Positions 1 through 650 of a stretch of DNA of 1,029 nucleotides are shown in pieces. The position numbers and the translations under genes are program-made. Each line of letters begins with the position of its first letter. The stretch's first letter is position 1. The notes under the pieces are model-generated. The model did no database searches. It was not told where the DNA came from and saw only the letters and a program-made list of their open reading frames with translations. The stretch lies in assembly GCF_003334765.1 (NCBI RefSeq), contig NZ_QOWT01000089.1; one strand, written 5' to 3'. This stretch comes from Escherichia coli. GTDB taxonomy: Bacteria > Pseudomonadota > Gammaproteobacteria > Enterobacterales > Enterobacteriaceae.

Positions 1-650
1 GTGAGTTGACTGGATTTATGTGGGATATTGCACTTGCTGCCCAATCATCATTCAGTCAGCAGAAGCAAAATTAAACCTATCGTGGAGAACAGGGGCGAAC
101 TTGTAATAATTTACTGAAGAGACAATTTTATGCTGACCGCCCAAATCAAAAGTGGGTAACAGATGTCACAGAGTTTAAGGTCGATGGCAGGAAGCTCTAT
201 TTATCACCAATCATGGACCTGTATAATGGAGAAATAGTCTCATATAACCTTACTGAGCGCCCATTAGCATCAATGGTAAAGAGCATGCTATTAGATGCGG
301 TAGAACAACTCAATAAAGACGATAAGCCCTTGTTGCATAGTGATCAGGGGTGGCAATATCAGATGCCTCGTTGGCAACGTTGGTTGAGTGATAATGGCAT
401 AACACAAAGCATGTCCCGACGTGGTAACTGCTTAGATAATGCAGCAATGGAAAGCTTTTTTAGTACTTTAAAATAAGAATGTTACTACCTAAATAAATAC
501 AATAAGTTACATCATCTAAAGCAAGATATAATTGATTACATTGAATACTACAATCACCATCGCATTAAAGAGAAACTCGATGGCATGAGTCCGGTTCAAT
601 ATCGACTTAAACATTTTTCATAGGATGTCCAAGATTTGGGGCGCAGATCA
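1..650 (+). mobile_element. Partial IS3-family insertion sequence (right-hand portion); right boundary tentatively at ~650
   Basis: Transposase orfB homology ends at the TAG at 621-623. IS3-family elements normally end in ...CA within a few tens of bp after orfB, and 626-650 (tgtccaagatttggggcgcagatca) ends in CA. The orfA and frameshift region and the left end lie outside the window. The boundary position is an inference. Confidence 0.5.
3..623 (+). pseudogene. IS3-family (IS150-group-like) transposase OrfB, 5'-truncated by the window edge and interrupted by two in-frame TAA stops (72-74, 474-476); natural stop TAG at 621-623
   Basis: One frame (3,6,9...) translates as [80 protein letters not shown]...[11 protein letters not shown]...[30 protein letters not shown]...IDYIEYYNHHRIKEKLDGMSPVQYRLKHFS*. 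The motifs [57 protein letters not shown] and YYN--R-----G-SP--YR match the IS150-group integrase-core domain as I recall it. Putative DDE residues: D at 162-164, D at 342-344, E at 450-452. The provided ORF 213..476 starts at an internal Met downstream of the first catalytic Asp. Confidence 0.8.

What the first reader, a model, noticed from the sequence alone, without database searches (positions are those of the whole stretch)
3..623. IS3-family transposase inactivated by two in-frame TAA codons with the frame otherwise intact
Across about 620 bp the transposase homology stays in one frame with no indels; the only lesions are TAA at 72-74 and 474-476. The second TAA sits where IS150-like proteins have a sense codon (TLK-S/T-EC-YL) and could arise from TCA to TAA by a single substitution. 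It falls 8 codons after the putative catalytic Glu (450-452), so any product from the 213..476 ORF would lack both the first catalytic Asp (upstream of the Met) and the C-terminal ~48 aa. This looks like point-mutation decay rather than indel-driven decay, and the element should be non-autonomous.
Basis: partly seen in the sequence, partly recalled or inferred. Interest (0 to 1): 0.35.

Follow-up and report, generated by a model that had tools for sequence, protein, structure and literature searches.

The report
Truncated IS3 remnant with one nonsense codon

Summary
The window is 100% identical to E. coli 042 chromosome 4919188-4920216, in the IS-rich region beside pic, and to about 25 other genomes.

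- **TAA 474-476** is a genuine nonsense mutation. It reads TCA (Ser) in every other copy I aligned, a single C>A change at 475. It occurs at 41 places in 39 complete genomes, so it is not an assembly error.
- **TAA 72-74** is not an IS3 lesion. It is the natural stop codon of the ISEc45 (IS110/IS1111-type) transposase gene, whose last 74 nt open the window. IS3 homology starts only at 76.

Window 76-650 equals nt 841-1415 of a 1415-bp IS150-group element. The left inverted repeat, orfA, the frameshift site and the N-terminal part of orfB are all missing. The main inactivating lesion is therefore an 840-bp 5' truncation, joined to an ISEc45 copy that has itself lost its 3' end, with 2 bp of microhomology at the junction. 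Point-mutation decay is not the main story. The nonsense mutation predates this junction, because longer copies (nt 486-1415) carry the same allele. RefSeq already annotates window 75-623 as an incomplete IS3 family transposase pseudogene with an internal stop. This is ordinary and already known.

The parts
1..74 (+). Last 24 codons plus the natural TAA stop (72-74) of the ISEc45 (IS110/IS1111-type) transposase gene, copy 1. The gene continues upstream of the window.
   Evidence: RefSeq CDS EC042_RS24475 / WP_000555380.1 ends at window 74. Translation ends ...[11 protein letters not shown]. Window 1-77 is 100% identical to the second ISEc45 copy. NF033542 E=2.8e-83.
75..77 (.). Junction between the 3'-truncated ISEc45 and the 5'-truncated IS3-family element. 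CC at 76-77 is shared by both parents (2-bp microhomology).
   Evidence: ISEc45 identity runs to 77 and IS3 identity starts at 76.
76..650 (+). 3' 575 bp (nt 841-1415 of 1415) of an IS3-family, IS150-group insertion sequence. IRL, orfA, the frameshift site and the start of orfB are absent.
   Evidence: 99.5% identical, with no gaps, to the full-length copy in pCFSAN004179G. RefSeq pseudogene EC042_RS31385 covers window 75-623, flagged 'internal stop; incomplete; missing N-terminus'.
162..164 (+). First catalytic Asp codon (GAT, motif WVTDVTEF).
   Evidence: Translation; gapless alignment to IS150 InsK; Pfam rve domain. The catalytic role is assigned from established knowledge of the IS3 DD(35)E motif.
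342..344 (+). Second catalytic Asp codon (GAT, motif HSDQG).
   Evidence: It lies 35 residues before the Glu. It is GCT (Ala) only in the pCFSAN004179G copy.
450..452 (+). Catalytic Glu codon (GAA, motif NAAMESFF). The conserved Lys seven residues later is at 471-473.
474..476 (+). Genuine nonsense codon: TAA where the family has TCA (Ser), a C>A change at 475.
   Evidence: five other copies have C. IS150 has Ser here. The allele is present at 41 places in 39 genomes.
488..488 (+). Synonymous T>C change (TAT>TAC). It is the only other substitution private to this lineage.
477..623 (+). The 48 codons cut off by the nonsense mutation (Pfam rve_2/rve_3 region), plus the natural TAG stop at 621-623.
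626..650 (+). Right terminal inverted repeat (IRR) TGTCCAAGATTTGGGGCGCAGATCA, ending in CA.
   Evidence: It pairs with IRL TGAAGTGCGCCCCAATAGTTAGACA in the full-length copy (76% complementary). Homology to other copies stops at 650/651.
651..721 (-). Remnant of an IS66-family left end (outer end GTAAGCG at 721 on the minus strand). This is the insertion target of the IS3 element, and 659-668 (GGTGGGCACC) is half of the target palindrome.
   Evidence: 94% identical to the IS66 IRL region flanking the IS3 copy in L002, in inverted orientation. Flank comparison.
779..997 (-). Right end of ISEc43 (IS66 family): IRR from 779, and the last 62 codons of tnpC at 809-997. Not part of the IS3 remnant.
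   Evidence: NF033517 E=1.9e-8.
998..1029 (+). Left end of a second, complete 1447-bp ISEc45 copy inserted in the ISEc43 tnpC gene. It is present in 042-type genomes and absent in the O104:H4 genomes examined.

Best explanation
Window 76-650 is a dead 3' remnant (41%) of a 1415-bp IS3-family, IS150-group insertion sequence. The element had inserted into the left-end hairpin of an IS66-family element in the pic/sat pathogenicity island. Shown: this copy carries a C>A substitution that turned Ser codon TCA into TAA eight codons after the catalytic Glu. Shown: it lacks its first 840 bp, and its broken end is joined, with 2 bp of microhomology, to an ISEc45 (IS1111-type) copy broken 1-3 nt after its own stop codon. 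Inferred: the nonsense mutation came first and the junction-forming deletion later, and that deletion was an illegitimate, non-transpositional event. The 'first TAA' at 72-74 is the normal ISEc45 transposase stop and happens to be in the same frame. The remnant has one inverted repeat, no start codon, no OrfA and no frameshift site, so it can neither make transposase nor be mobilised. It has no function.
For: The window is 100% identical to E. coli 042 and about 25 other chromosomes. RefSeq annotation gives the ISEc45 CDS ending at window 74 and an IS3 pseudogene at 75-623, flagged 'internal stop; incomplete; missing N-terminus'. Alignment to the full-length IS shows identity only from 76 onward, with TCA at 474-476. 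The two ISEc45 copies are identical through TAAACC and then diverge. A complete ISEc45 is 1447 bp with a 253-bp 3' non-coding region that copy 1 lacks. Variant table: 1240C>A and 1253T>C are private to this lineage, and all other copies have C and T. Allele counts are TAA 41 places in 39 genomes and TCA 85 places in 84 genomes. BR1220 (L005) has the same TAA allele and the same right flank but retains IS nt 486-1415; cM8a, which is on the TAA-allele list, retains nt 489-1415. So the nonsense mutation is older than the junction at 76. Family assignment rests on NF033516, Pfam rve, rve_2 and HTH_21 on the full OrfB, and 55% gapless identity to IS150 InsK. No copy covering at least 80% of this element was listed for strain 042.
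Against: The order and mechanism of the deletion are inferred, not observed. The attractive model is one IS66 element carrying both ISEc45 and the IS3 element, followed by a single internal deletion. I could not confirm it through IS66 target duplications: CAATAACA and CTCCGTTA do not match. The element's ISfinder name could not be checked. Lack of expression was not tested.
Confidence: 0.95

Rival explanations
1. One reading: a continuous IS3 transposase frame from 3 to 623, inactivated only by two nonsense substitutions (pure point-mutation decay).
For: Both TAA codons are in one frame and there are no indels from 76 to 623.
Against: Window 1-77 is 100% ISEc45, and TAA 72-74 is that gene's own stop. 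There is no similarity to the IS3 element upstream of 76. 840 bp of the element are missing.
Confidence: 0.02
2. ISEc45 transposed normally (seekRNA-guided) into the IS3 element, so the IS3 element is interrupted rather than deleted and its 5' part lies upstream of ISEc45.
For: IS110/IS1111-type elements are known to target other insertion sequences; ISEc21, for example, targets IS3-family transposase genes (PMC11187229).
Against: Copy 1 of ISEc45 lacks its own 253-bp 3' non-coding region and right end. Its left flank is an IS66-family tnpC fragment, not IS3 sequence. A complete ISEc45 inserts cleanly into IS66 tnpC.
Confidence: 0.02
3. The TAA at 474-476 is a sequencing or assembly error, or a strain-private change.
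For: It is a single-base difference from other copies.
Against: The identical 55-mer with TAA occurs at 41 places in 39 independently assembled complete genomes. These include O104:H4 outbreak strains, and two show longer copies of the element.
Confidence: 0.01
4. The in-frame arrangement is functional. Read-through of TAA 72-74 would give an ISEc45 transposase fused to an IS3 DDE core, or the truncated ISEc45 ORF is retained as a domesticated recombinase.
For: The ISEc45 ORF is intact in most carriers and the downstream frame stays open for 133 codons.
Against: The shared frame is a 1-in-3 coincidence. TAA is an efficient E. coli stop (general knowledge). The ISEc45 ORF is annotated as frameshifted in 2011C-3493 and varies among carriers. 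For IS1111-type elements the downstream non-coding RNA is essential for activity (PMC11187229), and it is deleted here.
Confidence: 0.01

Closest known systems
IS150 (E. coli K-12, insJ/insK), IS3 family, IS150 group
   Same: OrfB of a full-length copy of this element aligns to IS150 InsK over 254 aa at 55% identity with no gaps. The DD(35)E residues and the Ser at the position of the TAA are shared. The element also has orfA and orfB with an A6G frameshift motif, TG...CA inverted repeats and short target duplications.
   Different: It is a different element: 1415 bp against 1443 bp, and only 55% protein identity. RefSeq gives it only the generic name 'IS3 family transposase'. The window holds only its last 575 bp.
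RefSeq pseudogene EC042_RS31385 (E. coli 042, 4919262-4919810)
   Same: It is the same sequence, window 75-623, already annotated as 'IS3 family transposase; internal stop; incomplete; missing N-terminus'.
   Different: Nothing differs. The annotation already states one internal stop plus N-terminal truncation.
IS1397 / ISKpn1 (IS3-family elements that insert into loops of palindromic units)
   Same: Full-length copies of this element sit in the spacer of short imperfect palindromes with 3-5 bp duplications. This recalls the hairpin-loop targeting described for IS1397 and ISKpn1 (PMC1525189).
   Different: The palindromes here are not REP/PU sequences. Most lie about 55-70 bp inside IS66-family left ends. 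I made no sequence comparison with IS1397, and specificity is inferred from 11 contexts only.
ISEc45 and IS1111-type elements such as ISEc11
   Same: Window 1-74 and 998-1029 are ISEc45. The complete copy has a short 5' end (60 bp) and a 253-bp non-coding region downstream of tnp, which is the IS1111-type layout in which that region encodes the essential seekRNA.
   Different: The copy abutting the IS3 remnant has lost that entire downstream region and its right end, so it is itself defective.

Membership tests
IS3 family (insertion sequence) | DDE transposase with an integrase-core (rve) domain matching the IS3 family model | tested here: met
   NF033516 gives E=4.5e-54 and 184 bits (cut-off 160) for window 78-473, and E=9.3e-93 for the full OrfB. 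Pfam rve, rve_2, rve_3 and HTH_21 hit the full OrfB.
IS3 family (insertion sequence) | DD(35)E catalytic triad with K/R seven residues after the Glu | tested here: met
   Asp 162-164, Asp 342-344, Glu 450-452 (35 residues between the second Asp and the Glu) and Lys 471-473 are read from the translation and align with IS150.
IS3 family (insertion sequence) | Two overlapping ORFs (orfA and orfB) joined by a -1 programmed frameshift | tested here: not met
   These are present in full-length relatives: orfA of 166 aa, an A6G motif at IS nt 491-497, and 'programmed frameshift' in RefSeq. They are absent from the window, which starts at IS nt 841. The window is a fragment of a member, not a complete member.
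IS3 family (insertion sequence) | Terminal inverted repeats of the form 5'-TG...CA-3' at both ends | tested here: inconclusive
   The IRR is present at 626-650 and ends in CA. The IRL is missing from the window. Both are present in full-length copies, 25 nt and 76% complementary.
IS3 family (insertion sequence) | Short (3-5 bp) target-site duplication | tested here: inconclusive
   Full-length copies show TCAAC, TTTT, AAC, TATT, CTTA and TTGA. This cannot be tested for the window copy because its left end is deleted.
IS150 group of the IS3 family | OrfB most similar to IS150-type transposases | tested here: met
   55% identity and 77% positives over 254 aa with no gaps to IS150 InsK. The formal ISfinder group and name cannot be checked with these tools.
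Autonomous (transposition-competent) IS | Intact transposase reading frame plus both ends | tested here: not met
   The copy has lost 840 bp at its 5' end, has one internal TAA and has only one inverted repeat.
IS110 / IS1111-type element (for window 1-74) | DEDD-type transposase matching the IS110 family model | tested here: met
   NF033542 'IS110 family RNA-guided transposase' gives E=2.8e-83 and 280 bits (cut-off 140) for the 377-aa protein that ends at window 71. RefSeq names it ISEc45.
IS110 / IS1111-type element (for window 1-74) | Long non-coding region (seekRNA/bridge RNA) and both element ends | tested here: not met
   The complete copy has a 253-bp downstream region (fold z = -2.6). 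The copy that opens the window stops 1-3 nt after the stop codon. Rfam has no match to that region.

The most novel reading that the evidence does not exclude
The remnant itself is not novel. The most novel reading left open concerns its parent element. This 1415-bp IS150-group IS, unnamed in RefSeq, may be a hairpin-spacer-targeting element whose preferred site is a short palindrome (about GGTGCCCACC-N11-GTGGACACC) lying 55-70 bp inside the left end of IS66-family elements, and it inserts there in either orientation. It would then be an 'IS that hunts another IS', analogous to IS1397 in REP loops. ISEc45 shows the same habit in this locus, with both copies at the homologous site in IS66 tnpC. 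The region would then be a layered record of IS-on-IS targeting rather than random accumulation.
Probability: 0.3. Interest if true: 0.25.

Novelty: already known. Interest (0 to 1): 0.05.

Why it matters
It matters very little biologically. It is one more inert IS fragment in the mosaic region next to the pic and sat autotransporter genes of enteroaggregative and O104:H4 E. coli, and RefSeq already annotates it correctly.

Its practical value is as a caution. Two adjacent transposase genes from different families can sit in one frame and look like a single gene with a nonsense mutation.

The shared TAA allele and the ISEc45/IS3 junction are also clean, lineage-specific markers for this island variant: the TAA allele is in 39 of 5426 complete genomes.

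Tried and rejected
- **IS3 homology upstream of 76.** I looked for it and found none. Against the full-length element there is no DNA similarity there, and the region is 100% ISEc45.
- **ISEc45 insertion into the IS3 element.** I tested whether the junction is a normal ISEc45 insertion and rejected it. A complete ISEc45 extends 253 bp beyond the stop codon.
- **Single-deletion model.** I tested it by looking for matching 8-bp IS66 target duplications around L001 6662 and 8721. They do not match, so the model stays an inference.
- **Rfam scan.** A scan of the ISEc45/IS3/IS66 region gave only a sub-threshold AfaR hit at window 681-721 (27.8 bits against a gathering score of 100, E=0.05), which I treat as chance. 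No family matched the ISEc45 3' region.
- **Name of the IS.** I tried RefSeq annotation, NCBIfam and a distant blastn search. All give only the generic 'IS3 family transposase'.
- **Literature.** A search for ISEc45 returned only mobile-element inventories.
- **Recoding or read-through of either TAA.** I considered this and found no supporting evidence.

Full report
**Origin of the window.** The 1029-bp window is 100% identical to E. coli 042 chromosome NC_017626.1, 4919188-4920216. Eleven other complete genomes match it in full, and positions 1-997 are identical in O104:H4 outbreak strains. The region lies between type VI secretion remnants and the pic autotransporter gene. It is packed with broken insertion sequences.

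**Check of the observation.** In the frame starting at base 3 there are TAA codons at 72-74 and 474-476, and a TAG at 621-623. The claim that transposase homology runs in one frame over about 620 bp is not.

RefSeq places the end of an intact ISEc45 (IS110-like) transposase CDS, WP_000555380.1 of 377 aa, at window 74. It then annotates an IS3 family transposase pseudogene at window 75-623, flagged 'internal stop; incomplete; missing N-terminus'. I verified both annotations independently.

- Window 1-77 is 100% identical to the corresponding part of the second ISEc45 copy 1 kb downstream. That protein ends ...[11 protein letters not shown] at the same TAA. It scores E=2.8e-83 against the IS110 family model.
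- Aligned to a full-length copy of the IS3-type element (plasmid pCFSAN004179G, L002 2161-3575), the window matches only from 76 to 650. That is 575 columns with no gaps and 3 mismatches, and there is no similarity upstream.

So TAA 72-74 is the natural stop of a neighbouring gene. It shares the downstream fragment's frame by a 1-in-3 coincidence.

**The IS3 element and what is left of it.** The full-length element is 1415 bp. It has 25-nt inverted repeats, TGAAGTGCGCCCCAATAGTTAGACA and TGTCCAAGATTTGGGGCGCAGATCA. It has an orfA of 166 aa and an orfB frame of 259 aa. It carries an A6G slippery motif, and RefSeq annotates a programmed frameshift in intact copies.

Its OrfB hits NF033516 (IS3 family) and Pfam HTH_21, rve, rve_2 and rve_3. 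It is 55% identical to IS150 InsK over 254 aa with no gaps. Full-length copies are rare: only 14 of 5426 complete E. coli genomes hold at least 80% of the element, and strain 042 is not among them.

Window 76-650 corresponds to IS nt 841-1415. The remnant therefore lacks IRL, orfA, the frameshift site and about the first 90 codons of the orfB frame. It keeps the three catalytic codons (Asp 162-164, Asp 342-344, Glu 450-452, with 35 residues between the second Asp and the Glu, and the conserved Lys at 471-473), the natural TAG stop, and the IRR at 626-650.

**The second TAA is real.** Five other copies (L002, L009, L010, L011, L012) have TCA at this codon, and IS150 has Ser there. Against the family consensus the remnant has just two private substitutions: C>A at 475 (Ser to stop) and a synonymous T>C at 488. 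The third mismatch to L002 is private to L002, whose copy has GCT (Ala) instead of GAT at the second catalytic Asp.

I then used 55-mer queries designed so that megablast can seed only on the matching allele. The TAA allele occurs at 41 chromosomal places in 39 genomes, and the TCA allele at 85 places in 84 genomes. This excludes an assembly error.

**History of the locus.** In strain BR1220 a second copy next to sat carries the same TAA and C488 alleles and an identical right flank (window 651-778), but it retains IS nt 486-1415. Strain cM8a is on the TAA-allele list and retains nt 489-1415. The nonsense mutation therefore predates the junction at 76.

The partner at that junction is also broken. 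A complete ISEc45 is 1447 bp: 60 bp, then a 1134-bp CDS, then a 253-bp downstream non-coding region. This was defined by its clean insertion into ISEc43 relative to O104:H4. Copy 1 stops 1-3 nt after its stop codon. Neither element keeps an end at the junction, and only CC (76-77) is shared. I therefore infer an illegitimate deletion rather than a transposition event.

The orientations fit a single model. One IS66-family element would have carried ISEc45 in its tnpC 3' region and the IS3 element in its left-end hairpin, and then suffered one internal deletion. Strain ECCNB12-2 (L018) shows a nearly full-length IS3 copy in exactly this site and orientation. However, the expected 8-bp IS66 target duplications do not match, so this remains an inference.

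**Remainder of the window.**
- 651-721 is an inverted IS66-type left-end remnant.
- 779-997 is the right end of ISEc43, with the last 62 codons of tnpC on the minus strand.
- 998-1029 is the left end of the second ISEc45 copy.

**Mechanism and function.** The remnant has no start codon, no OrfA DNA-binding part, a premature stop and only one inverted repeat. It can neither encode transposase nor serve as a transposition substrate. I found no evidence of recoding or read-through.

**Comparison with what is known, and novelty.** This is a fragment of an IS3-family, IS150-group element, and RefSeq already annotates it as such with one internal stop. It is already known and ordinary.

**Side observations.**
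- In 11 contexts the parent IS sits in the spacer of a short imperfect palindrome. Eight of these are hairpins close to the left ends or tnpA genes of IS66-family elements. Both orientations occur, with 3-5 bp duplications. This recalls IS1397 and ISKpn1 targeting of palindromic units (PMC1525189).
- Both ISEc45 copies in strain 042 have homologous left flanks in IS66 tnpC. This fits the RNA-guided site specificity of IS1111-type elements, whose downstream non-coding region is essential (PMC11187229). That region is missing from copy 1.

Noticed in passing
window 651-721; L002 2090-2160 and 3576-3600; L009, L010, L011, L012, L014-L018 flanks: The parent 1415-bp IS3/IS150-group element appears to be target-specific. 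In every context I examined it sits in the spacer of a short imperfect palindrome (left half about GGT[G/T]CCCAC, right half about GTGG[A/G]CACC) with 3-5 bp duplications. The site is usually 55-70 bp inside the left end of an IS66-family element, and both orientations occur. This resembles IS1397/ISKpn1 targeting of palindromic units.
   Followed up: partly
window 1-77 and 998-1029; L001 6881-8077 and 8998-10444: ISEc45 has the IS1111-type layout: 60 bp upstream and a 253-bp non-coding region downstream of tnp (fold z = -2.6). The copy that opens the window keeps an intact transposase ORF but has lost that whole downstream region and the right end. It should therefore be immobile and lack its guide RNA.
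   Followed up: partly
window 779-997 versus L001 6662-6880: Both ISEc45 copies in E. coli 042 have about 95% identical left flanks, which are the homologous site in the 3' part of two different IS66-family tnpC genes. This suggests ISEc45 is site-specific for IS66-family transposase genes.
   Followed up: no
L002 3268 (IS nt 1108; equivalent to window 343): The copy in plasmid pCFSAN004179G is annotated as an intact 'IS3 family transposase' (WP_085948766.1). It has GCT (Ala) instead of GAT at the second catalytic Asp (HSAQG against HSDQG in all other copies), so it is probably catalytically dead despite an open frame.
   Followed up: partly
L005 1681-2529 (E. coli BR1220): In BR1220 the same TAA allele sits in a longer copy, and RefSeq annotates the truncated frame as real proteins (WP_077793896.1 of 282 aa, plus a 30-aa WP_353954697.1 downstream of the stop). 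The same lesion is therefore called a pseudogene in one genome and two genes in another.
   Followed up: no
NZ_CP021175.1 4755147-4756567 and similar (H157-H160): Some genomes that match the TCA 55-mer at 98% carry an IS3-family element that is only about 73% identical overall to the 1415-bp element. This suggests a mosaic relative that shares a near-identical 3' segment.
   Followed up: no
window 722-737: Directly after the IS66 left-end remnant lies a second IS66-type terminal fragment (CTCCGTTAACGCTTAC, resembling the ISEc43 IRR in inverse orientation). IS66 ends are therefore nested within one another here. No matching 8-bp target duplications were found.
   Followed up: partly
window 681-721: There is a weak sub-threshold Rfam match to the AfaR sRNA (27.8 bits against a gathering score of 100, E=0.05) over the IS66 left-end remnant. 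It is probably chance, or shared IS66-derived sequence.
   Followed up: no
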